Source: Heterodontus francisci (taxonomy: Eukaryota). From it: a stretch of DNA of 64,000 bases. Below are positions 1 to 36,120 of this stretch, one piece after another (within the stretch, counting starts at the first letter, position 1; every line of letters starts with the position of its first letter). Both the position numbers and the translations under genes were made by a program. The stretch is taken from the NCBI RefSeq assembly GCF_036365525.1, contig NC_090385.1:62380170-62444169 (forward strand). The letters are read 5' to 3'. The notes beneath the pieces are model-generated. The model was given only the letters and a program-made list of their open reading frames with translations. It was not told the origin of the DNA and did no database searches.

Positions 1-170
1 ACAATTCATCATTAGCATTTCTGGTACCTGACACATGGTTTTCCTCCCCTGGTGTGACCACACAATGGACCAGGATGTGGAATCCATGTCCATCCATTAA
101 TGTTTGGATGAGTATAATCCTGTTATGATGTGGCTACTTAGCACCTTCTTTGTTTCAGAAGAACCCATTC

Positions 171-617
171 ACAGAATCACAGAATTGATACAGCACAAAA
201 GGAGGCTAGTCAGCCCATCATGTCTGTACCAGCTCTCTGAATGAGCAATTCACCTAGTGCCACTTCCCTGCCTTCTCCCTGTAACCCTGCACATACTTCC
301 TTCCTAGATAACAGTCTATTCCCTATTGAATGCCTTGATTGAATCTGCCTACATGACACTCTTAGGCAGTGCATTCCAGAGCTTGACCACTCGCTGCATG
401 AAAAAGTTTTTCCTCACGTTGCCATTGCTTCGGTTGGCAATTACCTTAAATATGTGCCCTCTTGTTCTTGTTCCTTTTACGAGTGAGAACAGTTTCTCCC
501 TATCTACTCTGTCCAGACCCCTCATGATTTTGAATACCTCTATCAAATCTCCTTCAGCCTTCTCTTCTCCAAGGAAAACAGTCCCAACTTCTCCAATCTA
601 GCTTCATAACAGAATTC
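171..617 (-). mobile_element. CR1 LINE 3' fragment (ORF2 C-terminus and tail)
   Basis: ORF 349..546 IEVFKIMRGLDRVDREKLF...TRGH...FFMQRVVKLWNALP is the CR1 ORF2 C-terminus; short-repeat tail (acagaatc)n at the left end. Confidence 0.85.
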
Positions 618-918
618 AGGAATGTCTCTTGATGTTTTCAGGATGGGTGTAATTGATACCTCCTCGTCTGGAATGTATCCTTTTATTCTTAACAGACAGT
701 GAGGCAGTGTTCGAATACACAGGCCAGGTCGTTTGACCTTCAGCAGCCATCTTTTGCAACATTGTCCACATTTCTTTAAAAGATAAAGTCAATTTTAAAC
801 AGTCCACCTTGAATAAAGATTGCATCTTAAAAGTAGGAATATGATATGTCTTTACTGGGCATAACACGATTTAAATAAATAAAGGCTCACCAGCTACTAA
901 CCAATCAACTGTTTGTCT

Positions 919-1269
919 TAGAGTCAGAGAGAGATACAGCACTGAAACAGGCCCTTCGGCCCACCGATTCTGTGCCGACCAACAACCACCCACTTATACT
1001 AATCCTACATTAAATCCCATATTCCCTACCACATCCCCACCTTCCCTCAATTCTCCTACCACCTACCTACACTAGGGGCAATTTACCATGGCCAATTTAC
1101 CTATCAACCTGCAAGTCTTTAGCCGTGGGAGGAAACCAGAGCACCCGGCGGAAACCCACGCGGTCACAGGGAGAACTTGCAAACTCCGCACAGGCAGTAC
1201 CCAGAACTAAACCCGGGTCGCTGGATATGTGAGGCTGCGGTGCTAACCACTGTGCCACTGTGCTGCCCC
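919..1269 (-). mobile_element. tRNA-derived V-SINE (HE1-like shark SINE)
   Basis: Reverse strand reads GGCACAGTGGTTAGCAC (A box), GGGTT-type B box, central GGTTTCCTCCCAC..AAAGAC domain and CR1-type tail GGGCCGAAGGGCCTGTTTCAGTGCTGTATCTCT; close to the copies at 13.7 kb and 32.4 kb. Confidence 0.85.
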
Positions 1270-2062
1270 ATCTTGTGCTGACTTTATTTTATAAGGAGGT
1301 TAACTGAAATGTTTTTACTGAACTCTTGTTATCTAAATACCTTAGATTCTATTTTATTGAAAAATTCAGAACCCTTTTGTGTTACTATCCTTTGCTATTA
1401 AATTTTAAGTTTATCTCCTAGATTTGATTAATTAATGGAACACTGATTGTAAAGTGTCAATTTGGCCTGCAAAATTTTTGCCTGCTCCTCAAAAACTGAT
1501 GCTTTCTTTTACCCCGAATACTTCCAACCTCCTCCTTTAAAATTTTGGTGCAGAAACTTTAAAACTGGACACCCTGCTGGAACACTCACCCCTAGATTGG
1601 TGAACTGCCTTAAGGAACACATGCTGCACTCGCAGTTATCTGAGTGAATGTAAATGAGGCCTGACCATGATAATGGTATGGACCCTATGCTGACTCCTTT
1701 GGATGGGCGTATCACATAGCCTGCCCACCACATGCCTGACAAGGCCTCAAGCAAAATATTTCCCCCAGATCTCCTCTATGTACATGGTCATGTAATACAT
1801 TATACTAATATGCTGTGCAACAGAGTAGCAGGATACATGTTTTTATCCATAAGTTTTCTCACATGCAAGTTCTCAATGTTGGGCTGGTCATCGGGGCAAA
1901 GACCCAAGTGCTCACTCAAAATGATGTAGGAAAACTGGCAGGCAACTCACTTAGTGCCTCTGTTCTGCACTTGTGACTAGCTCAACAATAGCATTATCAG
2001 AAACCAATCTCTTGACTAGGAAATTCCATCATCTTTGAACTACTTCTTCAGGACAATTCCTG

Positions 2063-3091
2063 TGTTACGACCTCAGTGAGACCATTAACATCACAATACG
2101 AGATAAGAACCCCAGACCAATTTAAAGAATTACACAACAAGATTTCACATTTTTAGACTTTTATTATAACAACTAAACTGAAAGAAATCCCCATTAACCA
2201 GAAAGTACTTTATAAGTAGCTGATACCCCAAATTACAAAGAAAGGTATTTACTTATTAGAATACTTGAAAACTTCACACCACACTTATACGTTACACAGT
2301 CCTTTTTTGATAGAAAAATCCCAAACTCCTCCCAGTAGCAATGGGTTGGATCTCCCAGACTTTTTCAAAAATCAATGTCCTCTTTGCTCGCTTCTCCAAG
2401 CACTTCCGACCTGGACTTCTGTGAATAAGAAAATTCCTGGTGATCCTGTTGGGCTTTTACTTCTCCACAAGCTTCAACCTTCAAAACAGGTTCAAGTCTT
2501 CGCAACTTTTACTGTACCAGGCTTCCAAGAATAGGTGTCCCCTCTCTCTCTCTCTCTTGAGGCTGCCATCACTGCTTGTCTTTCTTACAGCCTACTCTGA
2601 GGCTGCAATCGCTGGGTTCCCTTTTTATAGCCTGCCTTGAGGCTGCAAATGCTGGTTTTCTCTTACAGCCTGTCTGCCTTCAGAAAATCTGTGAAATTTA
2701 CTTGGACTCAAAAGTCAACAGCTTATTGTCCAGTATCCTATATGCAAAGTCCAGAAGTCTGGTTTCACAGAGCCATCTAGGCCTCCCATTGTTCCCAGGT
2801 GTTAACAGCTGCCTGGTACATTTGCATCTTCAGAATCACTGACTGTTTGCTTTACGACCCAAACGTCTGAGAGGGTGAAACCCATTGTTCTTCAGGTGTT
2901 ATCCCTGCAGTCTCTTTTTTTTAAAAAAGTATTTGATCTGTATTCTCTGTTGTCCTGGTAACCAAGACTTCTGTCTTGTCCTTTCACAGAGTGGATGTGA
3001 GGTCACCTGACTTTCCAAACTCCATCTTAAACTTTTGAAAATCACAATTTTTAAAAACATAATCATGTTACAAAATCTAGCGTTCGTAACA
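2063..3091 (-). mobile_element. Solo LTR (~1.03 kb) with 4-bp TSD CCTG
   Basis: TGTTACGA...TCGTAACA inverted termini; CCTG at 2059-2062 and 3092-3095. Strand inferred only from an AATAAA near 2160. Confidence 0.85.
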
Positions 3092-3509
3092 CCTGTAAAA
3101 ATCTCGTCTGAGATTTTCTCACAGGCCTGCGGAATTGTTTAAAACAAAACATTGAGGAAAAAATGTCATATTTGTGGCATATCGCATCTCATCAGAAACC
3201 TGATTAACCTTGGATTATTCTAGCCCAAGAAACATCTTGTTCTTAATTTCATTTAGGATACTCCACATATATTCTGTCGCAACTTGTACAATAAATCAAG
3301 CCGGTTCTTTTTAGAAATAATCTTGGCTATACTCAAAGATCAGAAAGTCATAACATTTTATCTCTCTGTTCCCCACATCAAGATTATATCCTGTTCTACA
3401 TTATAATTAAAGAAGCAAAGGTAGTAAATTAGTGAGATATTTTGACAAATTCTTTATCTTTGTTACATATACAATAAAGCTATGAATTGTAAATCTATCT
3501 ATCCACAGT

Positions 3510-5315
3510 GGCCCAGTACAACGTCCCATAGCGCTTCACAGGAGCATTATCAAAGAAAATATGACACTGAGTCACAGAAGGAGATATTAGGTCAAAGATA
3601 TAGGTTTTAAGGAGTGTCTTAAAGGAAGAAAGCAAGTAGAGTGGCTGAGAGATGTAGGGATGGAAATTCGAGCTTAGGGCTGAGGCAATTGGAGGCGCGA
3701 CTACCAATGGTGGAGCGATTAAAGTCGGGGATGCTCAAGAGGCCAGAAAAAGATAAGCACAGATATCTCGAAGGATTATGGGCTGGAGGGGAGAACAGAG
3801 ATAGGGAGGGGCGAGGCCATGGAGGGATTTGAAAACATGGATGAATATTTTAAAAGCAAGATGTCGCTTGTCTGGGAGCCAATGCAGGTCAGCAAGCACA
3901 GGGATAGGTGAACAGGACTTGGTGCAAACTAAATCACAGTCAGCAGAGTTCTGGAAGACTTCAAGTTTACGGAGGGTAGAATGTGGGAGACCAGCCAGGA
4001 GTGCATTGGAATAGTCAAGTCTCGAGGTAACAAAGGCATGAGTGAGGGTGTCAGAAGCTGATAAGCTTAGACAGGGATGAAGTCGGGTGATGTTACGGAG
4101 GTTGAAATAGGCAATCATAGTGATGGCACGATCATGTGGTTGGAAGCTCATCTCGGGGTCAAATATGATAATAAGGCTGTGAACAGACTGGTTTAGTCTC
4201 AGACTGTTGCTAGGGAGACGGATGGAGTCGGTAGCTGGAGAACAGAGATTGCAGACTGAAAACAAAGGCGTCAGTCTTTTTGTTTGGAGGATATTTCTGC
4301 ACATCCAGTATTGAATGTCGGATAAGCAATCTGATAATTTAGCAACAGTGGAAGAGTCAAGAGAGGTGGTGGTAAGGTGCAGCTGGGTGTCGTCAGTGTA
4401 TATGTGAAAAGTGTGCTATCAGATGATGTCGTTGAGGGCAGCATGTCGATGTGAAATAGGAGGGGGCCAAGGTTAGATCTTTGGGAGACACCAGAGGTAA
4501 TGATGTGGAAGAAGGAAGGGAAGTCATTGAAGTAATACTCTGGATACGATAGAGAAGAAAGGAAGCAGGTGAGAGCAGTCCCACTTAACTGGATGACAGT
4601 GGAGAGGCGTTGGAGGAGAAAAATGTGATCAACTGTGTCACAGGCTGCATACAGGTTGAGAAGGACAAGGATGGATAGTTTACTTTTGTCACAATCACAT
4701 AATATGTCATTTGTGACTTTGGTAAGAGCTGTGTCAGTATAGTGGAAGGGCGGAAACCTGATTGGAGGGATTCAAACATGGAGTTCCGGGAAAGATGGGC
4801 ACAGATTTGGGAGGCGACAACAGGTTCAAGGACTTTGAAGAGGAAAGGGAGGTTGAAAATGGGGCAGTAGCTTGCAAGGATAGTGATATCAAGGGTTTTT
4901 TGTGAGAGGGGTGATGATGGCAGATTTAAAGGAGAGAGGGAAACACCTGAAGACAAAGAACCATTAACAATACCAGCTAACATGGGAAGGTGGAAGGGAA
5001 GTTGGATGGTCTGCAGTTTAGAGGGAATAGGGTCGAGGGAGCTGGAGGTGGGTCTTAAGGACAAGATGAGCCCGGAGAGGACAAGAGCGGAGATTGAAAA
5101 AAAACTAGAGAAAGATGCAAGTTCAGGGCTAGGGCAAGGGGGAGCTTTAGAAGAAGTTTGGCTGGTGTGCTAGTGGAAGGGAGGGACTTAGTAGTGGCAA
5201 CTGATCGGATGATCTCTACCATACTGGCAAAGAAATCTATGGGCTCCCCACACTTATTGTTGGAGATGAGGGTGGAGGAGACAGGGGATAGGGGTTTAAG
5301 GAGATAGTTTGCGGT
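3510..5315 (-). mobile_element. L2-clade LINE, degraded ORF2 (RT) and 3' end
   Basis: Frameshifted L2 motifs SSLDPIPSKL, NSMFESLQSGFRP, HAFVTSRLDYSNALLAGLP, LADLHWLP. Confidence 0.85.
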
Positions 5316-5665
5316 TTACAAATAGAATAGAAACAGAATACAAAACCTCACCAACCTCACAAAGCCCTGTGACTAATAAATATAACTAACATTTTGTACT
5401 TTTAAAGGTGAGTTTAAAAGGTTCATTGCTATGATTTTTTTTTGTTACTGGCATTTTCCCATTTAAGTCTAGGGAGGTCTGAAAATTATTTCCATCTATG
5501 GTACATACGAGCATATGAATTTAGGAGTAGGAGTAGGCCACTCGGCCCCTCGAGCCTGCTCCAACATTCAACAAGATCATGGCTGATCTGATTGTAACCT
5601 CAACTCCACATTCATGGTTTGTCATTTAATGACATAATGGCAGACCAATCATAAGGAAAGATATT

Positions 5666-6200
5666 GGCCTGGATTTTGCAGTAGTAATTATGGTGAAACT
5701 GGCAGCGTTTGCTGTCATTACCCTTCTGAAACTGACAGCAATTACTGGAGTCAGTTCGTGCGCAGTAAAACGCGGAAATCCAGAAGTTGCTTCTCCATAG
5801 GGTGCACTGTTGAAGGTTCCCTCAGACTGCAATCAAGCAGAAATCACTGAACTGATGAGAACTTGCCCTTTTACATGTCTACTCTTGCTGGAAAAATCCT
5901 TGAAAAAGTTACACCTTGTTAAATGAGGTACAATTTGGTTTTTAACAGTGTACTTACTAAGTTCATAATTACTACTGAAAACCTCTCTGGCCCTGGAAAA
6001 CTAATTTTATATTTGTGGAATGCCATATTTCTTCATTATGATAAATTTCACATATTTTAAAAATATTTCAGTTCCTACCTTAATCCCATGTGTATATCCC
6101 AATCATTTATTTTACTGTCTGTAAAATGTAATTAAAAGTGAAGGATAATCAGTGTATTTTGCTCCATGGCATGCTGTCTGTGAAAATACTTCAATGTGAT
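5666..6200. mobile_element. Non-autonomous DNA transposon (MITE-like, GGCCTGGATTTT terminus), truncated
   Basis: Homologous in reverse orientation to 10388-11980 (shared GCTGTCATTAC, CCAGAAxTTGC and GGTGCACTGTTGAAG blocks); cut by a CR1 fragment at ~6200. Confidence 0.6.
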
Positions 6201-6705
6201 TCCCTTTTAGAAACTACCACTGAATCTGCTTCCACCACCCTTCAAGACAGTGAATTCCAGATCTCATCACTCACTAGGCAAAAGAAAACTTCTCATTTCC
6301 TCCCTGGTTCTTTGGCAATTATCTTAAATCTGTACCCTGTGGTTACCAACCCTCCTGCCAGTGCAAATGGTTTCTATCTGTATTGAAACCCGAACTAATT
6401 TTGACCACCTACCTCTATTAAATGTCTCCTTATCCTTTGCTCCTCTCAGGAAATCAACTCCTCCTTCTCTAGTCTCTCCTAAAGTTCCTCATCCTTGGTA
6501 CCATTCTAGTAAATCTTCTCAAAGGCTTTTACATCTTTCCTGAAATGTGCTGCCCAAATATGGACACCATATGCCAGCTGAGGCCAAGGATTGATTTCTA
6601 AAGCTTTACAATAAATTCCTTGCTTTTGTACTCAATGCCTCTGTTTATAAACCTAAGGATCCTGCATGCATTTTTAACAGCTTTATCAACTTAGCCTACC
6701 TCTAA
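6200..6705 (-). mobile_element. Old CR1 LINE 3' fragment
   Basis: CR1 hallmark stretches gaatctgcttccaccacccttc, tgcccaaa..tggacac..ta..ccagctgagg, ccttgcttttgtactc. Confidence 0.7.
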
Positions 6706-7002
6706 ATATCAGGCCTGAGATGAGCGTGCATCGCATTTGTGATGTTGGCATGGTGAGGATTCAGCAAGTCTCATTTTGGGATGTTTACATAACATCTCAT
6801 GTATCAAGTGAGTGGAGGTGTACCAGTCTCCACAATGGCATACGTGCTCACCACCCAAGACCCTAGTGTCATCCGTGCCAGGCAGGCAATTTGGACAGGT
6901 ACTCATGCTCAAAGGATCACAAAATTAGTTCTATAATCTCTAAACAAATTTTAAACAACAATGGAATACATTTAAAAAATTAACCCATTATTAAAACACA
7001 TT

Positions 7003-7705
7003 GGGCCAAATTTTCATGGAAGAATATCATGGAAGAATTAATGGCATGCCATTATTAATGTGCACATCAGCAAGCATGTTCAGAGGATGAACAAATATGG
7101 TATGAGTTGCACATCTTCATAATTTGCTGGTTGATTTACACTGCTCTGCTGTTTGCCTCCTAGAAACAGCATCTCACGCTGAGCCTCCCCATTAGTTTTA
7201 AGAAATAACTGCATTTGCACGTTAATTGCCCTTTAAACTCACTGCAAAAAGTTAGGGTTCATAGTTAACAGTGTAAGCACCCTTTCGATAGCATGATAAT
7301 TGTTAATACAATGCCAATTCATCTCTCAGGCCCGGAAAGGAGCGATTTAAATTGTTGAGTCCTTCTGCATGTGGTAAACTCTTCCTAGCCATTTTAAAAA
7401 ATTTCAAATGTTGCTTTTTTTTTCTTTTCAGTCTTATTTCTCTTTCTCTCTTCGTCCAATCTTTCTTTCCCTCTTATTATTTCTCTTTCTGTACATGATT
7501 TGACTCTAATTCACCATCATATTCTTTTCTTTGTGTTTCTTTCTCATTGGCCACTAAGGTCTTGGATGCCCCATTGCCATCAACACTCTGTTATCAGCCT
7601 GCACTTTCAGAAACTTATGGGGCAAAAATTTGAGCTCAAGGCTGCAGCAAAACATCTAACTAACGTGCATGTTGCAAGATGCCCGACTCTGGCAAGATTT
7701 GGCTC
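7003..7705. mobile_element. MITE-like element with imperfect TIRs
   Basis: GGGCCAAATTTTC at left versus GCAAGATTTGGCTC at right; no coding capacity. Confidence 0.55.
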
Positions 7706-8360
7706 TTGATGTTTTACATCCCTTTGTTTATTTCCAGTCATCTGTTGAGTTAATCAAAACAATGTCTGTTTGAACAGCAAGAGCTGATTGCCTTGCTGGT
7801 GGAAGGGGGAACTGGCTTAGAGGGATTAGTCTGACAGTCTGTATACACAGTGAAAATACACATTGTTAATGATATCATGAATAATAAAGCAACTATATAG
7901 AATGCCTGCTCTAAAAAGTGCCCATTATTATAACATACTCTGATATCACACAAATCATTTGTGGCTCTGCTTTTAACAGACATGTAACAGATAGCTCACT
8001 TCAATGAGGCGTGCAGCTCCCCAGACATGAAGTCTGTATTTTGAACAAGAACTAAAGTTCATTGAAAACTAAAACATTTGCTGCTTTAATATTTTTAAGA
8101 TAAACTGGACAAAATTACATCTTTCAGAAATGAATAAATTATCATATTCAAAAAAGTATTAAACCCCATCACCCACAAATATGAGATGACAGCAATCCAG
8201 ATTATTTCTTCCTGAATTATTGTCCTAAAGCATAATACCATTCATTCATAAAGCATAAGCTGCTTTCCATTTGAATGATTCCGGCTCTGAGTCCAGTTGT
8301 GCTGGACTATGTAGGGAAAGAAGCGTGATACTGAAAAGGAAGCACAGCAAAGAAACTCAC

Positions 8361-8418
8361 CCGACAAGCCCCCGCCAATGATAATCACATCTTGCTTTCC
8401 ACTGGACATTTTCACCAT
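8361..8418 (-). CDS. First coding exon of a flavin monoamine oxidase (MAO)-like gene; remaining exons not found, probably left of the window
   Basis: ATG GTG AAA ATG TCC AGT GGA AAG CAA GAT GTG ATT ATC ATT GGC GGG GGC TTG TCG G|GTGAGT = MVKMSSGKQDVIIIGGGLS(G). GxGxxG FAD motif; in-frame TAA three codons upstream of the ATG; consensus donor; phase-1 intron at the same glycine as vertebrate MAO exon 1 (DVVVIGGGISG). Confidence 0.75.
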
Positions 8419-9009
8419 GTCTGTTTACACCTGTCTTTTTCTGCAAACGGTCTTGAATGTGGCTGTTTGATGACTTCTGTGGTCTTTGTACAATTTGTTG
8501 GTGTTTGGTTCCAGACTGCAGATAAATCAATCAGTGTTCACTTGTGTGCTCTGGGTTGCACCTGTTCATCCCTTAGACTGCCTGACACAGATGTACTTCT
8601 TTTGTCTCCGTGTGTGAAGTCTCCTGCTCAAGAGGAGGGACCATTGACAGGATTGTTATAGGTTATGCATTTAATGCTTCAAGTGAAGAATCAAAGATGG
8701 GAATCTAATGGGGAAAAACACATAATAACATTACACATAAAAACAGAGAAAGGGATAAAACCAAACACTAAACAGAAATATTAAATTACCTTGCTCAGAG
8801 CTGCCAATTAAGCCATATCCTAAAGTTCTTTAGAGGACTGCATTTCAGATCACAGTGTTGAGCACATTAATTTGTTATTACTATTTAAGCTAAATGTTCC
8901 AATATAGAGACAGAATCCAGACAGATTTATGTTTTACTGGTGAGAATCAGTATATGCCTCAAAAGTTGCATGATCGAGAGCTTATAATAGCTGAATTCAG
9001 GCAACACTG

Positions 9010-11980: not shown

Positions 11981-12007
11981 AAAATCTAGGCAGATATTTC
12001 AATGAGG

Positions 12008-16733: not shown

Positions 16734-16885
16734 TCACTTTAAGGCCGCTAGTTCCTGCAGCAGCTGTTCCTTCTCCCGCTGAAGTTCCAGGATGTGCTGT
16801 TTGTTCTGATCTAGACGATCCTCCAGCCACTGTAGCAGAGGACCGCTAATGGACGACATCTGGCTACACAGATTCTTCGTGAAAA
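16734..16885 (-). CDS. BRCC3: BRCC3 coding exon 8 (last): (V)FTKNLCSQMSSISGPLLQWLEDRLDQNKQHILELQREKEQLLQELAALK*
   Basis: ctctag acceptor, phase 1; C-terminal coiled coil of BRCC36; TGA at 16734-16736. Confidence 0.95.
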
Positions 16886-17599
16886 CTAGAGAAATAGAAG
16901 ACAAAAAGGGAAATATTTCCAGTCAAGGCATTTAACAACTTTTCAAACCATATTGGGTACATTCCACGTGGTGGATATTTTTGTTCTCAAAACATAAAAC
17001 AGTTGAATCCTAAAAAATGCGTAACTAATTTAGAGCAAATAAGCACTACAAATGAAACTCTAAGTACACCAAACCCTGAATCTAGCCCACCCTTACTACA
17101 AATATTCAGAATTACACCTACTTAGTGATTTGCTCTCATCTAGGCAAATATCAAGTCAAAATGCTCATTCACAGTGATGCCTTGTACCCAATTATCTATT
17201 TTTAATTGGATCAATAATTTTACATATTCAAGAAGAATATTACTGTAGGGTAGAATATAAATTGTCTCTATTTTTGATTAGACATTTCCTCCCGATCCTT
17301 TCATTCTCTTAATTCAAGCGTTGGGATTTATTTAATAATAGGCCTGCTTTTGAGCAGGTGAATTCCCAGTTTCAGATGCATTATAGCATTTATCCAACAG
17401 CAGAGAGTGAGAAAGTTAGCTAGATGTCAGATTTCTCTAACAGATTTGGCAACTTTTTTTTGTTTTAAACTAACTTAAAGCTAACTTCTGTAATGTTGCC
17501 CTTTGAAAGCAAATAATCTACTGAATCAATTTGTTTGTGGAAAAAAAACATATGTTTCACATCGCACAGGTCGTACACCCTTTGGTGCACAATCTCAGA

Positions 17600-17740
17600 A
17601 CTCTCTCACATTCCACATCTCATCCATCACCAAAAGCACCTATTTTCATCGAGGTAGTATCGTCTACCTCATCACCCCCGATCGTCAATGAAACCCTCAT
17701 CCATGCCTTTGCTACCTCTAGGCTCAACTTCTCCAACACT
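17600..17740 (+). mobile_element. Short L2 LINE fragment
   Basis: ETLIHAFATSRLNFSN motif in ORF 17531..17881. Confidence 0.6.
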
Positions 17741-18883
17741 ACACAAGTTCTACAAATTCCAACTCACCCAGGGCTGTATACAGAAAATTTAGAGTTGTAC
17801 ATACTGCTTCCGCTTGTTGACCTCACCTCTCCAGCAGCTATTGGCACATGCATTTCTGGGCAGGGGTGTGGTGTGGTGTAGGGCGGTGGGGGTGCGGTGG
17901 AGGCTGGAGTCCAGGCGGCCAATACCCTAGTCAATTTTGAACTTTTGAAATGACCTCAACAATAATTATCCTTTCTCTTCCACTCAGAGATCCTATTTCC
18001 TACAGTATGCTGGAACTTTTTTCCAACTCCCCCAGTACAACAGCACTCTTCCCCTTCCCCCCATTTAGAAAGACTGAGCACTCAAAGAAAGGATTAGCTT
18101 TGTTCACTATAATCAATCTGCATCATCAACAACAATATTCGGATAAGACATTAATCAATTGTAAAAGCATATCCAATAATGGGGAACAGGAAAACACTCA
18201 GTTAACAATAAGCTCTAATTCGGGGTGGCAATTACCACAGAACATGGGTTCTTTCACAATATACTCCACATTTTAACTTACAGCTGTCAGTTCTACCTAA
18301 CAACTAAAATTCTACAACCGTAATGTGATTTACACTGCCTGTGTATCTGTGGCATAGCTCCCAACATATCGCAAACACTATAAAACTTACAATGTCACAG
18401 AAAATCAGGCAGCCTCACAGCAGTATCTTAGAAGTTTCCTCAATTCAAAAAGCCTGTCTGTTTATGGCAGCAGTAATTCTTCAAGGTGCACTTGAACATA
18501 GCGCTGAACATTTTTGTTAAGGCTATGCATAAGTACTCAAAGAATACCAATCGCAAAGCTTCAAACATCACCTCTTTCACAGCTGCTTTCTGTAATTTTG
18601 TATCTTCTGTATAGAAGTTTAAGCACATAGCTAATCTTTCTCCCTGCAGAAAACCTTTGTAAATTGCGAGGAAGAGGAAAAAAGGGCTCATCTGTGAAAT
18701 GGATATTTTTGACTTCCACATAGTTCCCTCCATCCTACTATTATTTCTCCAACTCTTTATGTTTTTCCAGTAATCATCAGGATCAAAGGTGTAAGTCTCC
18801 TGCTGTACTCTTCTATTATGTCACTTAATATGCCATTTTGTTTTGCAAAAATAGGGTTATGGAGGCATTGAGCCATCATCTAC

Positions 18884-18927
18884 CTGATCCATTGTGAATC
18901 TTGGTTATAGGGTCCAGATGTGTCAGA
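18884..18927 (-). CDS. BRCC3: BRCC3 coding exon 7: (S)LTHLDPITKIHNGS
   Basis: 44 nt, tttcag acceptor and GTAGAT donor; phases match the neighbouring exons. Confidence 0.93.
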
Positions 18928-19215
18928 CTGAAATAAATGATAAAAAGTTACAGTTTATGGAGAAATCTTCTATTGGATACAAAAATCCACTGGCAGCAAG
19001 AAAGTGAACTAGATTAGTAAACTTTAACCATACCAAAAAAAGAGGCAAAATCCACATTAACATATACTAAGCCACTAGAATATGATTATTCTGTTTCCAA
19101 TAATATGAACACTAATAAAGTAAAAGTAAATTTAAGGTGGGATGGGAGGAAGCATACTAACTGAAATGCCTGCTCCAGGGAGGAGGAACGTCTCATGATT
19201 GTGTGTATAGGAGAT

Positions 19216-22200
19216 TGTCATGCAGAACACCACCTGCCAAGAATGAGGCACATTAATTTTGTGATATGAACATTGATTTGAAAACTGTTGCTGAAGTGAA
19301 GAAAGGACTTGTTTAAAAGAAGAATCACCAGGCTCTTGGTTGGAAAGACATTTGCATATTAACAGACAGTGCTTGTAGAGACTTCCCTTATCCAGTTTAA
19401 CCCACAATGGACTTTGAGCATCAGACATTGAAGGTGAGGGAGCTCAAATTTCAGGATGACTTCTTGGATGGCCAGTGAAGTAACTTGGGATAAGTTAAAA
19501 GCACTGTCTATGGAGGAGTTGAGGAAAATGGCTGAGCGGTGTGGGATCGCTGTACGTGGCAAGCCTAGGAAGTCTGAACTCCTAAGGCTAGCGACCAACC
19601 ATTTTTCCCTTGAATCTGAAGAAGTAGAAACAGGGTTGGAAGTAGACTCCGACAGGGTATTGTTAGCAAAGATACAACTGGAACAGAGGAAATGTGAATT
19701 AGAGAAGGAGAGGGAGAAAGAAAGAGCCTTCTAGAAGGAATGTGAAAAGGAAAGACAGAAAAAGGAACGAGACAGAGGAAGGGGGGGGGGAAGAGAGAGA
19801 GAGAGCGAGAATATTCCAGAAGGAATGCAAAGAGAGAGAGCTGAAGCAGCTTGAGTTAACTTGGGGGAGCGACAGAGTGACCCCACTGAAAGCATGATCA
19901 ATATGGAGAAGTGTAATTCAGGGCTGGGTACAGAATTGTTAAAACTAGCTCAACTAATCCCGAAATTCAATGAGGATAATGTAGAAACATTTTTTGTGTC
20001 CTTTGAGAAACTGGTAAGGCAGCTAAAATGGCTAGCTGAGACCTGACTCTTTTATTACAAAGCAAACTAACCTGAAAAGCCCATGAGGTTTATTCCCTGT
20101 TGCCAGATGAGAGTTCATCAAATTATGAACTGACAAAAAATGCTGTCCTCGGGGCATATGAATTAGTACCCGAAGCCTATTGCCAAAAGTTTAGAACCCT
20201 CAAGAAGCAAATCAATCAAACTTATCTGGAGTTTGAAAGTAAGCAGCTGGCTTTTGACCGGTGGCTGAGGGCTCTTAAAGTACAGCTCAGATATACTCCC
20301 ACTCTCCATAAAGACCCATAGAGAGGAGGAGCAGGTTCAGAGAGCCCGGCAAGCAGCCGTTCTGGCTGATGAGTTTGCTTTAATTTATAAGTCGGTTTCC
20401 CGGGGAAAACCTTTCCTAATTACCCCACAAATCCAAAAATGTCAGAGGGCGGGAAGGTGATAGAAGCCAAAGCAGTCCTGGGAGAGAAGGAAAAGCAGGA
20501 GACACAGGGGACCCTCCTCTAGCAAAAGGGAAAATGTTGTCAGCAGGAATGAGACCCGGAGACCTATCTGCTTCCATTGCAATAAGGCAGGTCATCTAAA
20601 AGCTGACTGCTGGAAACTAAAGGGAAAACCTGTAGGGTTAATCGGGGCACATCCGCTCAGTGAAGAAGGAATCCTGAAGGAAAGCACAACAGAGCAAGCT
20701 GTAGCTTTAACTACAGTAAGAGTGTAACACAGGAAGCTTACTATAGCAAATGCAGGAAAAGTTAATAGGATTTCTGAAGGTTATCCAGGTTTTGTGTTTG
20801 AAGGGAAAGTAACCCCATACCCCTTGAGTGGGGCAAACAAGCCCATAGTAATTCTCAGTGACACAGGGGCCACTAGATCCCTTTTACTGGGAAAAGGCCT
20901 GACCTTTCCCCCAGAGAGTGCAGTGAACACCAGAATGGTGGTGAATGGTATTGGAAGGCAGTGTATGCCTGTACCTGTACACCAGGTGCACTTGGAGTAT
21001 GACCTAGTTTCAGGACTGGTGACCGTAGGGATTGTCCCTAGTTTGCTTGTGGACGGGGTTGACCTGCTCCTAGGTAATGATCTGGCGGGGGTGAAGGCGG
21101 TGGTCCCCCCAGTGGTGAAAGAAAGACCGCAGGAGGTCAGAGAGACAGGGCAGTGGCAGGTGACGGTTCCCTGCAGTCTCCCTGAATGTGTAATGAGTAA
21201 GGCCATGATCAAACCAGCTCCCCCAGAGGAGACTGAATTGGCACTGCAGGCAGATGAATATGAGGTCTGTCTATCCGAGACTTTCTTTAGAGAATTAGAA
21301 GACCCAGGGAATGAGTCAAATGGATTTTCCCTAGCTGAGTCTCAGCAAGCTGACCCAGTATTGCAAGAGTTAGCACAGGCTGCCCAGTCTGAAAGTGAAG
21401 CAGAGGGAGTCCCTGATTGCTACTATTTAAAGAATGAGGTACTGATGAGGAAATTGAGTTCTCCTCACAGACCAGAAAGCAAGGAGTGGACAGTTGTTCA
21501 CCAGTTAGTGGTGCCGCAGAGGTACCGGAGAGAAATATTAAGATGGGCCCATGAGACTACAGTAGCTGTACATGCGAAAAACCAAAGCCCGCATAAGACA
21601 GCAGTTTGACTGGCCAAATCTCCACAAAGAAGTGGTGGAGTACAGCAAGAGTTGTCACATGTGCCAGGTTGAGAGGAAACCCCAACCTACAGTGAAAACT
21701 GCATCCCTTAAGTCCTGTACTGGTGTTAGGAGGACCCACCAGCAGAGGGCTGGTGAACTGTAAGGGACCCCCACCGAGAACAAAAGGGGACAGGCAGGCA
21801 CAAGGCTGGCAAAAGGTTAGAAAGGGAAGGGGAAAAAGCGACCGAGGGCAGGTTAAAGGAAGTCTGGGAGGAATCCCGGATGAAAACCTCTACTGTCCGG
21901 TCAGCCAACCCCGAAAAATTTGAAAAGTTAGACCCCAAATCCTCTTGTGTAAATGCAGACACTAGAAGCACCCCAGCAGAGCTGCTAACAGCATTTACAG
22001 GAACCTGCAGGAACAAAGAAAGACCTCTAGGGGGCAGAGAAACCGTGAGTCTGATGCCTCACCTAGTTGAAGTGCCACAGGAGAGTGTTGTAGAGTCTGT
22101 ACAAAAACCTGCAGGTAGGAGTGTTCCAGAGGACAAAGGGGAGATTAGCAAAGAATCCTCCCCCACAGTCAGAAAAAAAAGAGAACCATCCATCCCCTGA

Positions 22201-23115
22201 AGTCAAACGCCTTTGCATGACTCAGCAAAGCAATGAAGGAGAGTTCAGGATAGACCCGCCCACTACTGACTCTCCTGGAAAAAAAATCCAATTTAGGGCT
22301 AATGAAATCTAACTGGAAAATCTTGACTGGAAAGACATTTGCATATTAACAGACCATGCTTGTGGAGACAAAGGGGTCACCTCCCTATCCGATTTAACCC
22401 ACAATGGACTTTGAGCATCAGACATTGAAGGTGAGGAAGCTCAAATTTCAGGATGACTGCTGGGATGGCCGAATCCACAAACAGATGTGGCCAGCTGGTC
22501 ACATGTCTAGCCAGCTTGGCAACCTGGTTTTTCTGAATTGTACTAAGAGTTTGAACTCAGAGACTGCAGTATGCTCCTGGACTCAAAAAGACCTCTTCTG
22601 TCTGGCTCTTCCTCTCTTTCTCACGGAACTCCAAATCCATTGAAGACACATGAACCCCAAGAGAGAAAGGTCTCCTACAGCAAACAAGGTTTAAGAAGAA
22701 TACTGGGCCCCAACGAAGAGCAAGATCTACCTACAATCAAGGACTCTACAGTGAGCTCGAAGAACCGTAACAAAAACCCTCTTCAGAGATTGCCTCAAAC
22801 TTCTCCACTTTTTTTTCTTCTGCTCTTTTCTGTCTCTATCTGCATGTATGTAGCACGTATGCATGCTAGCGTGGGCGTGTCGTGTATCCGTAGGTGTTAA
22901 GTGAATTAGTTTAAGTTTAAATAAAGTTCAACCTTTTTTCTTTAAACCTAAGAAAACTTGTTTGGCTAGTTTCTTTGCCTTATAATTGGAAGTTATTGAA
23001 CAAGGATTCACTAAGGGGGAGTTAAAAACAGTGTGTTAAAAAAAAACCCTGTTACAGTAAGACCAGGTGAAGACTGAGAGGGAACCCTAGACCCCTTTCT
23101 TACCTGGTCATAACA
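19216..23115 (+). mobile_element. Gmr1-type Gypsy LTR retrotransposon, internally deleted, 4-bp TSD AGAT
   Basis: TGTCA...TAACA ends; AGAT at 19212-19215 and 23116-23119; LTR segment repeated at ~19340-19473 and ~22328-22470; gag (IPKFNEDNVETFFVSFEK, AYELVPEAYCQKFR), CCHC knuckle CFHCNKAGHLKADC (~20568), protease ILSDTGATRSL, integrase Zn finger (AHET..VH..C..C); no RT. Confidence 0.9.
20794..21609 (+). pseudogene. Retrotransposon aspartic protease and integrase N-terminal remnant
   Basis: DTGA active site, GVDLLLGNDLAG, QLVVPQRYRREILRWAHE. Confidence 0.85.
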
Positions 23116-24094
23116 AGATATGAATAAAACTGATGCTTGTGCCAGTTACAGTGGTGTTACTCTATTCAAATGCACTTGTAAGAACAAGGGCAGCTTCTAA
23201 ATAATGGCTTCAACAGAAGTATTCTGTTCAAAGATGTAGGAATTTCAAAGTGAAAAAAGCTTTATTAATGTGGACAGCACCAAGCTAGTTAGCTTCATGT
23301 AGTACCTATGGAATATATACTGGCTTCAATTACATCAATTAAGAAAAAAATAGATGTAACTGAACCAGGATCACAGCATTTGACCATTGTGAAGAAGGGG
23401 AAGATTGGATGGTCCATTGGATTGATTGCTGTTCTTTCGCCTCTATGAAGGAGTCAAAGTTCACTCTCTCTGAAGGCCATCAAAAGTCTTAAATAAAGTG
23501 GGTTTGACTGTCTCAATCTCATACCTGTGAGCTTGTATTTGTAGAAAAAAATATTTAGCTCAGGTTCTAACATTCAAATTTAAATCTGATGCAGATTTAA
23601 GTTTCACCCAGCATTAACGTCAGTCTAAAATAGATCACATAGATGGCTGATGTAAGCAAATGTCACACAGGGTGCTCTTTGAAGGCTTGGATTGTTGGGG
23701 TAAAGTATCTGTATCTGACCCATGTCGTATTTAATTTTGTTGCACTTGATGATGGCACTAGGTGCCCAAAGGGCACTAACATTCCAGCATTAGCACCCCG
23801 TTTTGCTAAGCACAACAATAGTTTAAAAAGGAAAACAAAACCATTAATACAAATGTTTATATTAAAAAAAAATTCAACAGAACCATAATGTGACTGACAA
23901 AACCATAACATAATTCATTTTTATGACATGGGGAGAGAATATAGTATAGTTCTTTAGTCTGCACTGTAATGCAGATTCAGTACAGCACTGACCTCAGTGC
24001 TTTCTCTCCATAGTGATCACATATCCACTCAAAGGATTAAATGGTTGCAACTGAACTCCTGGACTTCATGGACAATAGATCATATATACAACAT

Positions 24095-24830
24095 AAACAT
24101 AGGAACACAAGGACAGGAGTAGCTTATTTAGCCCTCGAGCCTGTTCCGCCATTCAAAGGGATCATGGCTGATCTGTGACCTAACTCCATATACCTGCCTT
24201 TGTCCCATATCCCTAATTCCTTCGGTTAATAAAAATCTATCAAGCGCAATTCAAAATTAATAACTGATCTAGCAAAAATTGCCATTTACAGAAGTTCCAA
24301 ATTTCTACTACCCTTTGCATGAAGAAGTGTTTCCTAATTTCCATCCTGAAAGGTCTGTCTCTAATTTTTTTGACTATGGCCCCTAGTTCTAGACTTCCTA
24401 AGCAGCGGAAATTTTTTCTCCCAATCTACCGTATCTATTCCCCTTGTTAACCTAAAAACTTCAATCAAATCAGCCTTTAACCTTCTAAGTTCCAGGGAAT
24501 ACAATGCCAGTTTGTGTACTCTCTCCTCATAATTTAACCCTTGCAGTCCAGGTTATCATTCTAATAAATCTATGCTCCTCCCTTCTTCCTAAGGTGTAGT
24601 GCCCAGAACTGCTCACAGTACACCAAATGTGGTCTAACCAGGGCTTTGAATAGCTGAAGCATGACTTTTATCCCCTTATAGTCTATTCCTCTCAATATAA
24701 AAGCCAGCATTTCATTAGCTATTTTGATCATTTTCTGTACCTGTTCATGACATTTTAATGATCTGTGTACCTGGAATCATAAATCACTTTGGATCTCGTA
24801 CTGTTTCTAGCTTTTCACCATTTAAATAAT
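24095..24830 (-). mobile_element. Old CR1 LINE 3' fragment
   Basis: (acatagaa)n-like tail, gagcctgttccgccattcaa, tgcccagaactgctcacagtac. Confidence 0.75.
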
Positions 24831-24868
24831 GCCTGATACACAAAGCTACATCTCATTTTTTACTGTAC

Positions 24869-25000
24869 CTGTGAATTCTTCTATAAGCATCCTGCTCCTC
24901 CTGACAAAGAATTTTTGGAAGTTCCACAGCAGACTCCAGGCACACTTTACCAATGGTTTCATGGGGAACTACGTGGATAGGAATTTCTATTCGTTCATAC
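24869..25000 (-). CDS. BRCC3: BRCC3 coding exon 6: (E)YERIEIPIHVVPHETIGKVCLESAVELPKILCQEEQDAYRRIH(S)
   Basis: 132 nt, ttacag acceptor and GTACAG donor; near identical to vertebrate BRCC36. Confidence 0.96.
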
Positions 25001-26107
25001 CTGTAACCAAATTATCAAAGGTTAATGCCATTCAGGTGACATCCTATCCCAGGGGTCTGCAACATTTTTTCCTTACCCGAAAAGCCTTTTTAAAAAAAAA
25101 AATGCCTAAAATTAAAACTATTGGGCGCCACAAGACGTAAATTAGGCATTTCTAAACCAAAATACTTGACAAACTGTAAAGTCTCTGGTACAATGCATAC
25201 TTTCATTATATAATAAAAAGTGTTGAATTTATGTATCAATAGAAAGAAAAATCAAAATTAAAATAGCCCCAACTCTGAATTATTGCAGTTTTTGACTTTT
25301 TTAAAAAAACTATAATTTTGTCAGTAAATTTATTTTTAAAATAAACATTAGGTTAAATTAAGACAATTTTTTGGCTATTGATTCTCATGATCAAAAAAAT
25401 AGTTTCTAATAGCATATTTAGAAAGATTTATCATCTCAGATATAATAGAAACAATAATGGCCGCAACCATAAATCCTGTTCCTTGAACCAAAGACAATAT
25501 CTAGAACTATGGTGTAGCTATACCACTCAAACAGATTTATTTAGAGAATTATGTTGTTTCTTGTTAAAATAATCATTTGAAACTGTAAAGTGTAGCATAA
25601 TGATTAGCCTTTTATCCCTACAATACAAACATGGCTCTTACTTTTCTTGACCTCATTTTTTTTAGGCTTTTTCACGTTTCTGCGATCCAACTGAAAAAAG
25701 TTGGGAACTGCAAACAGTTCCGGAGCCGTAGGTTGCAGATCCCTGTCCTAGCCTATAAGCTTAGTTCAAGTACTTTACGATGTTTGTATGACCCCAGAGA
25801 TTAGATTACAGCCCTACCAACTTTTACATATTTTATGCACAAGTCTCAAACTTGAAATTGTTTTTGTCCACCAACTGGTTATCTCACACAGAGTTCAACC
25901 CCTGACAGAGAAGGCAAGCAATCAGCTCTTGTGAAAAGTACCCTAAAATTAAAGTGAAGACATATGCATGGATGAGCCAACTCTCCAATTTGTCCATTCC
26001 TTTCTATTGACGTTTCCCCATAATAAGATTAAACACCTCACATTAAAAACCAAGATCCTTGGTATATATTATTTTCACTAGAATAACATAGACTGCATTA
26101 TACTTAC

Positions 26108-26163
26108 TCAGAACCTTTCTGCGCTTGAATTGACTGGAAACAGGTATAGAGAACTCGGCCGGT
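26108..26163 (-). CDS. BRCC3: BRCC3 coding exon 5: TGRVLYTCFQSIQAQKGS(E)
   Basis: 56 nt, ctacag acceptor and GTAAGT donor. Confidence 0.95.
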
Positions 26164-26659
26164 CTGTAGGAAACATGTAAAAAGGCAAAATATATTGATT
26201 AATCCGGCCATCTAAATTTTTTATGTCTTCTCAACAAGCTAATTAAACTGGTAAGAGCTACCACAAAATCTGGATGGAATTTAATCATTAACTGTTCACA
26301 TAAACATGCTGCTTCTTGGAATTGTAATAATTTTGCAGGAAAGCACTGAGACCTTAGCTAACCTTGCTCTGGAAGCGATTTAGTAAATCATCCTTTCTCT
26401 TTATGGTCATGTATTCAAATCTAAGCCAGATTGAAGAAATAAGCGTGATTTATCTCTCTGATGGATGTTTACATCATGGATATAAAATGAGTTTGGAGCA
26501 GTATCAACCTAAGCCAGAGCACAAAACTATTGATAAGTCAATACAAATTGGCAATCACACTCTTCAAGGAAACAAGGAGGGTTTATCTGGGAAATGAAGA
26601 TGTTAGAGAAGTGCAGAAGATAGTACTCTCTTTAGTTTGGATTTTTAACTCATTCATAG

Positions 26660-26915
26660 TATGTGGTCATCACCGGCAAGGACTGTATTTCTTGCCCATC
26701 TCTAACTGCCCTTGAGAAGATGATGGTGATCTGCCTTCTTAAATCACTGCAGTCCGTGTGGTGAAGGTGCTCCCATACTGCTGTTAGGTAGGGGGTTCCA
26801 GGATTTTGTTCCACCAATGATAAAGGAATGGCAATCTGTTTCCAAGTCAGGATGGTGTGTGACTTGGCAGGGAACTCAGAAGTGCTGGTATTTCCATGCG
26901 CCTGCTGCCCTTGAC
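26660..26915 (-). mobile_element. LINE 3' tail fragment (family of 45310-47750)
   Basis: ttgcccatc.ctaa.tgcccttgagaag, ttccaggatttt, ttccaagtcaggatggtgtgtgacttgg. Confidence 0.7.
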
Positions 26916-27059
26916 CTAATTAAGGCTGCCATGTTGGAGCAATAGCTGCCACTTGAGCACTTGTTGACAGTGATTGCAAAAATATTCTCCTGCGCAGCTC
27001 TGATGCCCTTCAAATAAAAAAATGGAAAATGCACTACAGGTCAATTGACATCTGAAAAG

Positions 27060-27395
27060 GAAAGACAGAAAAGAACTTGGTTTTAGATGGTGCTTTTCAT
27101 GTTCTTAGGTCATTCCAAAATGCTTCACAGCCAATGAATTACTTTTGAAGTGAAGTCATGGTAGTTTTGTGAGAAAACATAGCAGAAAACTTGTACGCAG
27201 TAAGATCCAAATGAGATGAATGAACAATTAATCTGTTTTTGGAGGTGTTGTTTAGCAGCTATGTGTTGGCCAGGAAACCAGCAGAACTCCCTGATCTTCT
27301 TCAAATGGTGCTGAAGTCGTTTACATCCACCTGAAAAGGACTGTTTAATGTCTCCTCCAAAAGATGGCACCTCCAATAATGCAGAAATCCCTCAG
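27060..27395 (-). mobile_element. DeuSINE/SacSINE1-like SINE
   Basis: Reverse complement of the element at 12008-12352. Confidence 0.6.
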
Positions 27396-27686
27396 AATTG
27401 ATGCTAACGGATCTGCAGTGCATTCTCAGCATTTTCTACATTTTTATTTCAGATTTTCAGTTTGTTTTAAGATCACAACAAAAGGATAACTTACCAAGAA
27501 AATGACAAGTTATCCTTTTGTTCTGTCTGACATCAGCAAAGGGTGCACTAATGTCGCTTGTTAAAAGCCACTAAAGGGCAACAAAAGGCCCAGTGATTTT
27601 CTCTCACACCTTTTGAGGAAGCAGTAAACCACTGCTGACTTCCACCAAAGGAACGAACGCACAAAAGAACAGAGAGCAATATAGAC

Positions 27687-27775
27687 CTTGGTGTTCTTGT
27701 CCTCAATGAAACAGGAGAAGATCAGCCCTACGAAGCCCTGGTCCATCATCTGGTACATGGCCTGAGTACGGACAT
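27687..27775 (-). CDS. BRCC3: BRCC3 coding exon 4: (D)VRTQAMYQMMDQGFVGLIFSCFIEDKNTK
   Basis: 89 nt, tgtcag acceptor and GTCTAT donor; completes the JAMM Asp codon. Confidence 0.96.
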
Positions 27776-27981
27776 CTGACAGAGATAACAGAGAAATTAC
27801 ATAGAAATTGATCATGCTTTACTTCTTGAACAGATTACTTATGTGCAAACTGAACTGGCAAGGAAACGAAATGGACTCCAAACTATTCCAACAAAAAGAC
27901 TTTAACATAGTTTGGATCTGAATTGGCATATTAGGGGCGAAACAGATTTTATTGGCAAGATACAACCTTATTGTGACCTAT

Positions 27982-28180
27982 TGTTCGTGGGATGTGGGCG
28001 TCGCTGGCTAGACCATCCCTAATTGCCCTTGAGAAGGTGGTGGTGAGCCACCTTCTTGAACCGCTGCAGTACTTGGAGTGCTGCTACACCAACAGTGCTG
28101 TTCGGAAAGGAGTTCCAGGATTTTGACCCAGAGACAGTGAAGAAATGGAAATATAGTTCCAAGTCAGGATGGTATGTGGT
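27982..28180 (-). mobile_element. LINE 3' tail fragment (family of 45310-47750)
   Basis: tgggatgtgggcgtcgctggctag...gcccttgagaaggtggtggtgagc. Confidence 0.75.
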
Positions 28181-29221
28181 ATGGTGTAGGATGGTAATGC
28201 ATAACATCCCAATAGCCAACATAATAAGAAGATAGCCCTCCTGCAGATTTACTAGAAAAACCTTCAAGTGAAAATATCTACTGCCCAAATAGTGAACAGG
28301 AAAGAATCATTTTTTCTCTTTTTTAACAGATACAAACAAAACATTGAGAAGTCACAATGCTGCATGTTATATTACAAAATTTCTCACAAATTAAAAACAC
28401 TGGGTAAGCTCACTGATGGCTTAGGAGCAAATGCAAAACCATGCAAAATGATAAGTACAAACGTGAAAGGCCTTTTGGTCTATTTAGTTCATCTTTAAAT
28501 GCAAGTCTATGGTCGTCTGTCGAAGCATCCAAATGTCTCTTTAGTAACTTGAATCCATTAGACTCAGATTCCAGGTTCCAGATTCTGTGCTAAGTTCGCC
28601 AGTCTAGGAAATCAACAAAGATACTCCAACTGGGTTCTAAAATGCAAAGCTAGGCAGGAGGGAGGGGGGGGGGGGGGGGGGGGGAGAAAAAAAAAAATCA
28701 ACAAAAAAAAAAAATCGGCCTGAGTTCCTATGTCAGTTCATCATCCAGTGAACCCTGCTGGTAGGTGCACGTGCTGTGGACAACCAGTTAAAATACAAAT
28801 CAGGTCAGATATGATGCCTTTAACAATCAAATGGCCAGAAAAATACATGTGATAGATTTTAAAATGCGATCTGGGCAGTAAAGTTGGCGTATTGGATTGG
28901 TCACTCGTTCCGCACATGGCCGATTTTTCTTTTCCATCGGAGTTGGTGGGCAGGAAGATCGGGCGGAGTGTATAATGAACAGCCAATCTGCAACGCCAAC
29001 CTCAACATCCAGCAGTGCAAGTTAAAATCTATCTCAGTGTCTTGGCTCATACATTAAAAAAAATCTAGTTGAGCAAGGTACCAGAGGCCTGTCAAAACTG
29101 TGGCAGAAAGGAGCAAAGGCGAAAAAGATCACTGCTAACAAGGAATACCTACTCTCTAAACTGCTCACACAGGAGATGTTGGTTCCACTGTTACTTGATG
29201 CCCAGTTAAGTAATGACTTAC

Positions 29222-29309
29222 CTACGTGTGAAGGCCATACGGTGATATGAGGGTGAGAATGGTACCATCCCACCACTCTCATTGGGCGGCCAGTCATTTC
29301 AGCTAACCT
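29222..29309 (-). CDS. BRCC3: BRCC3 coding exon 3: RLAEMTGRPMRVVGWYHSHPHITVWPSHV (JAMM HxH motif)
   Basis: 88 nt; preceded by an AC acceptor of a U12 intron; GTAAGT donor. Confidence 0.96.
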
Positions 29310-30637: not shown

Positions 30638-30699
30638 CTAAGGAAAAAAAATGAAGAAGTTTATTATCTTCCATTTCTTTCCTAGCCGATCAAAGGGAA

Positions 30700-36110: not shown

Positions 36111-36120
36111 CGAGAGGTAC

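What the first reader, a model, noticed from the sequence alone, without database searches (positions are those of the whole stretch)
8361..8418. Hidden monoamine-oxidase-like gene next to BRCC3-CMC4-FUNDC2: candidate retained MAO ohnolog
Seen: a 58-nt coding exon MVKMSSGKQDVIIIGGGLS(G) with an upstream in-frame stop and a GTGAGT donor, too short for the ORF track. Established: vertebrate MAO exon 1 ends in phase 1 at this same GGGISG glycine. Human MAOA/MAOB lie near FUNDC1 (Xp11.3, MAOB downstream on the same strand), whereas FUNDC2-CMC4-BRCC3 (Xq28) is followed by VBP1 with no MAO. Inference: this is the sister-paralogon MAO copy from genome duplication, lost in mammals, i.e. an amine oxidase distinct from MAO A/B. 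I recall a third MAO lineage (called MAO C or MAO F) being reported in non-tetrapod jawed vertebrates, but cannot verify that here or show that this is it.
Basis: partly seen in the sequence, partly recalled or inferred. Interest (0 to 1): 0.8.

Follow-up and report, generated by a model that had tools for sequence, protein, structure and literature searches.

The report
First exon of shark MAO F
This short exon is the start of monoamine oxidase F, a fish-type enzyme for breaking down neurotransmitter amines that was described in 2025 at this same genomic address, so it is a real but already known gene.

Summary
On the minus strand, 8418..8361 is a 58-nt coding exon (MVKMSSGKQDVIIIGGGLS plus one G) with an upstream in-frame TAA and a GTGAGT donor. 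It matches the N-terminus of a full-length sawshark monoamine oxidase at 19 of 19 residues. That protein groups with tarpon, gar, sturgeon, bichir and lungfish proteins in a clade apart from MAO A, B and A/B (100/100). The neighbours are BRCC3, CMC4 and FUNDC2, the 5' synteny published for MAO F (PMC11833248). So this is exon 1 of the known MAO F gene in a shark or ray; exons 2 onward lie outside the window and were not seen. Corrections: the gene is not hidden, and the paper places its loss in the tetrapod ancestor. One modest addition: MAO F and MAO A/B lie on chromosomes of sister quarters C and D of a published paralogon, pointing to the second, jawed-vertebrate genome duplication. The MAO F paper does not say this. 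Low interest.

The parts
8361..8418 (-). MAO F first coding exon (58 nt, phase-1 end): N-terminus and first strand plus glycine loop of the FAD-binding Rossmann fold
8355..8360 (-). splice donor GTGAGT of intron 1
8425..8427 (-). in-frame TAA three codons upstream of the first ATG
8407..8409 (-). second in-frame ATG; aligns with the annotated start of sawfish and stingray MAO F (the 8418 ATG aligns with the zebra shark start)
1..8360 (-). intron 1, runs off the window; holds repeat copies, no MAO exon
16734..36225 (-). BRCC3, 8 coding exons, 261 codons plus stop; 5' neighbour on the same strand, stop about 8.3 kb upstream of the MAO ATG (synteny marker)
36001..37000 (.). CpG island (o/e 0.70-1.03), probable shared BRCC3/CMC4 promoter; no island at the MAO exon (o/e 0.27-0.35)
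42115..44568 (+). CMC4, two coding exons (synteny marker)
53331..59318 (-). FUNDC2-like gene, four coding exons; first exon not located (paralogon marker)

Best explanation
This is exon 1 of the monoamine oxidase F gene of a shark or ray. Shown: exon, start codons, donor, neighbours, and the match to full-length MAO F relatives. Inferred: a long first intron joins it to an exon 2 left of position 1, completing the glycine codon and the FAD-binding motif of a protein of about 520 residues. By homology the enzyme is anchored in the outer mitochondrial membrane by a C-terminal helix, binds FAD covalently through the cysteine of SGGCY, oxidises monoamines to imines in a Tyr-Tyr aromatic cage and reoxidises the flavin with O2, releasing H2O2. 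Tarpon MAO F does this with serotonin, dopamine, tyramine, phenethylamine and kynuramine and is clorgyline-sensitive and deprenyl-resistant (PMC11833248). Origin (inferred, about 0.85): sister copy of MAO A/B from the second, jawed-vertebrate genome duplication, kept beside BRCC3-CMC4-FUNDC2 and lost in tetrapods.
For: 19 of 19 identity to sawshark P0001, a full-length MAO (852 bits to PDB MAO A; PF01593). P0001 falls in a 12-member clade of 111 named proteins (FastTree 1.0; 100/100 in a 24-protein tree; SH-aLRT 100 in a 51-protein quick tree). The clade includes the 528-aa Megalops cyprinoides protein with the Phe/Met gate the paper gives for tarpon MAO F. Hemitrygon, lungfish, gar and eel each have one protein in each clade. 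Leu before SG, as in the window: 11 of 11 F against 3 of 91 others. Relatives keep K305, C406, Y407, Y444 and F208 (human MAO A numbering) in all 12 F proteins. Synteny as published. Bichir MAO F, FUNDC2 and BRCC3 records list the same longest-contig length, 181,559,541. Four database models lacking the usual N-terminus resume at this same glycine, which fits an exon boundary there. Origin: FUNDC1/FUNDC2 are strict ohnologs. MAO F is on gar LG7 and reedfish 12, MAO A/B on LG17 and reedfish 4. GABRB4 (quarter C) and GABRB3 (quarter D) of paralogon 15 are on those same chromosomes, and C/D split at the second duplication, which postdates the lamprey split.
Against: Only 19 codons of the gene are in the window; no catalytic residue, transcript or splice junction was seen. 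The database hit that led to P0001 has E 2.7 and was 1 of 4 candidates. Short N-termini discriminate modestly: bowfin MAO A/B also scores 13 of 17 and has the Leu. My trees have no outgroup. P0009 is equated with the paper's tarpon MAO F by species, length and gate residues, not accession. FUNDC2 against FUNDC1 rests on best hits (93% to Callorhinchus FUNDC2; 79% to a teleost protein named FUNDC1), with no shark FUNDC1 to compare. Shared contig length is weak: a Conger MAO A/B and a Conger FUNDC protein of unresolved type also share one. MAO genes were not found in the held part of the paralogon tables, so that placement is mine.
Confidence: 0.95

Rival explanations
1. It is exon 1 of the ordinary MAO A/B gene, moved next to BRCC3, and possibly the genome's only MAO.
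For: The exon matches shark and ray MAO A/B at 12-13 of 17 residues; this genome's other MAO locus could not be inspected.
Against: All three chondrichthyan A/B proteins begin MTS-x-KCDV and have GGISG; the window reads MSSGKQDV and GGLSG like the chondrichthyan F proteins. Published A/B neighbours are GPR34/GPR82/NDP/EFHC2, not BRCC3/CMC4.
Confidence: 0.01
2. It is MAO F sequence, but a relic: an orphan or pseudogene exon whose downstream exons are lost or broken in this species.
For: No other MAO exon in 8.36 kb downstream; no CpG island; MAO F has been lost in other lineages.
Against: Frame, start context and donor are intact and 19 of 19 residues equal a full-length sawshark protein. Full-length MAO F models exist in 4 chondrichthyan clusters. 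Human MAO first introns are tens of kb (recalled).
Confidence: 0.03
3. It is the GxGxxG exon of another Rossmann flavoprotein (protoporphyrinogen oxidase, FSP1/AIFM2, thioredoxin reductase, LAAO) or a chance match.
For: The peptide's best PDB matches are such proteins, none a MAO.
Against: Those matches have E 0.7-4.3. The exon is identical to two MAO F N-termini over 17 of 17 residues, ends at the expected glycine and sits at the MAO F address.
Confidence: 0.01
4. Origin only: MAO F arose by a small segmental or single-gene duplication, or at the first genome duplication with hidden paralogy in lamprey, rather than at the second duplication.
For: The paper says only 'a duplication event' in the jawed-vertebrate ancestor; lungfish and coelacanth MAO F lack conserved synteny; gar LG7 and LG17 are composite chromosomes.
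Against: FUNDC1/2 ohnology; the C/D chromosome match; a single lamprey gene sister to all jawed-vertebrate copies.
Confidence: 0.12

Closest known systems
MAO F (MAO C in the preprint) of non-tetrapod jawed vertebrates; PMC11833248, bioRxiv 10.1101/2024.08.20.608864
   Same: 5' neighbours CMC4 and BRCC3; N-terminus identical to sawshark and sawfish members; present in cartilaginous fish (five accessions in Table S1).
   Different: Nothing in the window differs in kind. Chondrichthyan (4 of 4) and lungfish relatives have Leu where ray-finned MAO F (7 of 7) has Met at the gate equivalent to MAO A Ile335, so tarpon kinetics may not transfer; this gene's own residue is outside the window.
MAO A/B of non-tetrapod jawed vertebrates
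   Same: Same family and catalytic residues; P0001 is 68-69% identical to shark and ray A/B.
   Different: Separate clade, different exon-1 sequence, different neighbours and chromosome.
Tetrapod MAO A and MAO B (PDB 2BXR, 2Z5X, 1GOS)
   Same: Fold and active-site residues by alignment; P0001 is 66-67% identical.
   Different: A tetrapod duplication of the A/B lineage; not orthologous to this gene.

Membership tests
MAO F | CMC4 and BRCC3 on the 5' side | tested here: met
MAO F | GABRA3/GABRB4 on the 3' side (partly conserved in cartilaginous fish) | not testable with these tools
   lies left of the window
MAO F | Groups in the MAO F clade | tested here: met
   Indirect: exon is 19/19 with P0001 and 17/17 with P0003, both in the F clade at 100/100; the window's own full protein was not available
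MAO F | Host is a non-tetrapod jawed vertebrate | tested here: met
   Closest named relatives of the MAO and FUNDC2 exons are cartilaginous fish; species not determined
MAO F | A separate MAO A/B gene in the same genome | not testable with these tools
   No access to the rest of the genome; seen in stingray, lungfish, gar and eel
MAO F | Phe/Met gate as in tarpon | tested here: inconclusive
   Site is outside the window; chondrichthyan F relatives have Phe/Leu, so Met is not clade-wide
Vertebrate MAO family (PF01593) | N-terminal dinucleotide-binding glycine motif, exon ending in phase 1 at its last glycine | tested here: met
   Motif and phase seen; boundary in other vertebrates supported indirectly by four truncated models, otherwise recalled
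Vertebrate MAO family (PF01593) | Flavinylation Cys, Tyr-Tyr cage, O2-binding Lys, C-terminal membrane helix | not testable with these tools
   Exons outside the window; Cys, both Tyr and Lys present in 12 of 12 F relatives, hydrophobic C-termini seen by eye
Vertebrate MAO family (PF01593) | Amine oxidase activity at the outer mitochondrial membrane | not testable with these tools
   Shown for tarpon MAO F in PMC11833248
MAO A/B | Exon-1 signature and GPR82/NDP/EFHC2 neighbourhood | tested here: not met
2R ohnolog pair (MAO F with MAO A/B) | Copies on sister paralogon segments with other ohnolog pairs | tested here: met
   From literature, at chromosome level; MAO itself not found in those tables
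2R ohnolog pair (MAO F with MAO A/B) | Duplication node after an unduplicated outgroup | not tested
   My trees lack an outgroup; the paper places lamprey as sister to both

The most novel reading that the evidence does not exclude
MAO F and MAO A/B are the two parental homeologs of the jawed-vertebrate allotetraploidy (paralogon 15, quarters C and D; about 0.85 on its own). This would explain the timing of the duplication and, if MAO F lies on the loss-prone subgenome (recalled, not checked), its loss in tetrapods. In addition, shark MAO F keeps a Phe/Leu gate rather than tarpon's Phe/Met and lacks a CpG-island promoter, so it may be a tissue-restricted enzyme whose substrate and inhibitor profile differs from the only MAO F assayed so far.
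Probability: 0.45. Interest if true: 0.3.

Novelty: already known. Interest (0 to 1): 0.15.

Why it matters
Little as a discovery: the lineage, its synteny and its enzymology were published in 2025, and shark orthologs are already in protein databases as 'amine oxidase [flavin-containing]-like'. The residual value is a mechanism for the duplication (second genome doubling) that the MAO F paper leaves unstated, and a caution that the tarpon gate residue is not shared by shark, ray and lungfish MAO F. That matters to anyone inferring ancestral MAO specificity.

Tried and rejected
The peptide alone gave nothing diagnostic against PDB or Pfam. Motif scans and tblastn with 10 MAO proteins found no exon 2 or later exon in the window; other hits had E of 0.3 or more. 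Rfam: 0 matches in the window. An upstream non-coding exon was considered: the AG sites within 100 nt of the ATG have at most 11 pyrimidines in 20 nt, and there is no ATG between 8568 and 8419, so a true first exon is favoured but not shown. Capture of the exon inside an inverted-repeat element was considered because two 70%-identical inverted copies (5828-6191, 10577-10947) are centred on it; rejected as the explanation because the exon is unique in the window and sits at the expected locus. The members and accessions of the P0001 cluster stayed unlisted, so the species is not pinned down. The careful 51-protein tree did not finish (quick tree given); a 24-protein careful tree was run instead. 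Nine unnamed MAO records of 120 and two unnamed FUNDC records of 14 were left out of all counts and trees; 9 of 111 named proteins lacked the exon-1 motif and were dropped. The hagfish paper gave nothing usable. No structure was predicted, since only 19 residues belong to the window. Contig collections were not searched.

Full report
Observation. On the minus strand an ATG at 8418 opens 19 codons plus one G (to 8361), followed by GTGAGT; an in-frame TAA lies three codons upstream. A second in-frame ATG is at 8409, and there is no ATG between 8568 and 8419. The peptide alone is a generic glycine-rich dinucleotide-binding motif: 6 PDB matches at E 0.7-4.3, none a MAO, and no Pfam family. It is nevertheless far above chance. 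A profile from 91 MAO A/B exon-1 ends finds only this site above 8 bits in the window (33.4 bits, ending on the donor), and 0 of 20 shuffles reach 8 bits. A profile from 7 non-chondrichthyan MAO F proteins gives 42.9 bits, against 13.4 for the next site and 18.4 for the best shuffle.

What it is. A 40-codon read-through query returned 1 hit among 4 candidates, E 2.7: P0001, a 524-aa sawshark (Pristiophorus japonicus) 'amine oxidase-like', identical at 19 of 19 residues. P0001 is a complete MAO. Of its best 120 relatives, 111 carry names. In a FastTree of these, 12 form one clade (support 1.0): four sharks and rays, lungfish, sturgeon, gar, bichir, tarpon, eel, mormyrid and arowana; 99 lie outside. 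The split has 100/100 support in a 24-protein IQ-TREE run and SH-aLRT 100 in a 51-protein quick tree; none of the trees has an outgroup. Among the 102 named proteins with the exon-1 motif, the four best matches are the four chondrichthyan members of that clade (17, 17, 15, 15 of 17 residues). Chondrichthyan MAO A/B reach 12-13 of 17 and bowfin A/B 13 of 17. The Leu before SG is in 11 of 11 clade members and 3 of 91 others. Proteins not selected by the peptide hit the same exon by tblastn (E 9e-5 sawfish, 1e-4 zebra shark), and none of 10 MAO queries finds another exon, so the gene continues left of the window.

Surroundings. Upstream on the same strand is an intact 8-exon BRCC3 (36225..16734, 261 codons), then a CpG island at about 36.0-37.0 kb, CMC4 on the plus strand (42115..44568) and a FUNDC gene on the minus strand whose best named hits are FUNDC2 (93% Callorhinchus, 84% coelacanth; 14 hits among 22 candidates). 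No shark FUNDC1 was available for a like-for-like test. The MAO exon has no CpG island and lies in DNA that is unique within the window.

Comparison with what is known. PMC11833248 (read: parts 1-4 of 7, term searches, part 1 of 2 of the supplement as text; Fig. S1 seen only as labels) describes MAO F in lungfish, coelacanth, bony and cartilaginous fish. It is flanked 5' by CMC4 and BRCC3 and 3' by GABRA3/GABRB4, keeps the 5' synteny in cartilaginous fish, and was lost in the tetrapod ancestor. The tarpon protein in my clade has the paper's length (528 aa) and Phe/Met gate; accessions could not be compared. The preprint (passages only; its supplement was not seen) calls the gene MAO C. The window's exon is therefore exon 1 of MAO F.

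How it works. Inferred from homology: splicing completes the glycine codon and the FAD-binding motif. The protein of about 520 residues is tail-anchored in the outer mitochondrial membrane, carries FAD on the SGGCY cysteine, oxidises amines in a Tyr-Tyr cage and yields aldehyde and H2O2. The Lys, Cys, Tyr, Tyr and Phe at human MAO A positions 305, 406, 407, 444 and 208 are kept in 12 of 12 clade members. Tarpon MAO F localises to mitochondria, oxidises serotonin, dopamine, tyramine, phenethylamine and kynuramine, and is inactivated by clorgyline but not deprenyl. At the gate equivalent to Ile335, 7 of 7 ray-finned MAO F have Met, while 4 of 4 chondrichthyan and the lungfish protein have Leu. 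The tarpon profile may thus not carry over; this gene's own residue was not seen.

Origin. The paper and preprint contain no 'ohnolog' or 'FUNDC', and 'whole-genome' only in a reference title. A library search for monoamine oxidase + ohnolog + cartilaginous fish found 0 papers. A search for MAO F since 2024 listed only that paper as relevant among the 15 shown of 4,650 mostly author-name matches. Subscription journals were not searched. Published data point to the second genome duplication. FUNDC1 and FUNDC2 are strict ohnologs (PMC5526904, passages and part 1 of section 12). MAO A/B is on gar LG17, reedfish 4, chicken 1 and Xenopus 2, and MAO F on gar LG7 and reedfish 12. In PMC8040251 (passages, sections 8-9, supplement rows) GABRB3, quarter D of paralogon 15, is on LG17, reedfish 4, chicken 1 and Xenopus 2, and GABRB4, quarter C, on LG7 and reedfish 12 (species read from the column order), with topology ((A,B),(C,D)). 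The second duplication was an allotetraploidy after the lamprey split (PMC7269912, passages), which matches the single lamprey MAO. Against: this is chromosome-level evidence, MAO was not found in the held part of those tables, and lungfish and coelacanth MAO F lack the synteny. PMC10244343 (passages) and PMC10972751 (term search) added nothing on this point. Human gene order around MAOB/FUNDC1 and BRCC3/VBP1 is recalled, not tested.

Verdict. Real exon, correctly guessed family, already described. Confidence in MAO F exon 1: 0.95. Novelty: already known. Interest 0.15; the untested additions (2R homeolog origin, Leu gate in sharks) would merit about 0.3.

Noticed in passing
window 30517..29310, minus strand: BRCC3 intron 2 is a U12-type AT-AC intron (donor ATATCCTTTC, branch-like TCTTTGAC at 29326, ends in AC); the frame is intact only with this junction as drawn. 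A U12 intron in BRCC3 is known and shared between human and Arabidopsis (PMC2831892, one passage).
   Followed up: yes
window 5828-6191 and 10577-10947; also 5659-5791 and 11855-11987: Two old inverted copies (70% over 389 nt; no third copy in the window) are centred at 8387, inside the MAO exon; a second pair (79%) extends them. One of 12 inverted pairs under 20 kb span, so probably coincidence.
   Followed up: partly
window 15702-15871 and 16634-16805: Direct duplicate (79% over 173 nt) of the end of BRCC3's last coding exon and the start of its 3' UTR, about 935 nt downstream.
   Followed up: no
window about 19334-22470, plus strand, in the last BRCC3 intron: Decayed LTR-retrotransposon-like insertion: direct repeats about 3 kb apart, a zinc knuckle and a weak aspartyl-protease match in broken frames.
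   Followed up: partly
window 38963-40678 (-), 56407-57648 (+), 47248-47646 (-): LINE reverse-transcriptase ORFs (RVT_1), the longest 571 codons; about 23% of the window is self-repeated.
   Followed up: partly
window 8425-8407, minus strand: Start-codon turnover among relatives: the sawshark model starts two codons upstream of the 8418 ATG, zebra shark at it, sawfish and stingray at the 8409 ATG.
   Followed up: partly
protein set (P0001-P0120): None of the listed carp, tetra, salmon or perch-like fish proteins fell in the MAO F clade, hinting at a second loss within teleosts; only the best 120 cluster representatives were seen.
   Followed up: no
window 59319-64000: FUNDC2's first coding exon was not found by a simple ATG-to-donor scan; it may be atypical or beyond the window.
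   Followed up: partly
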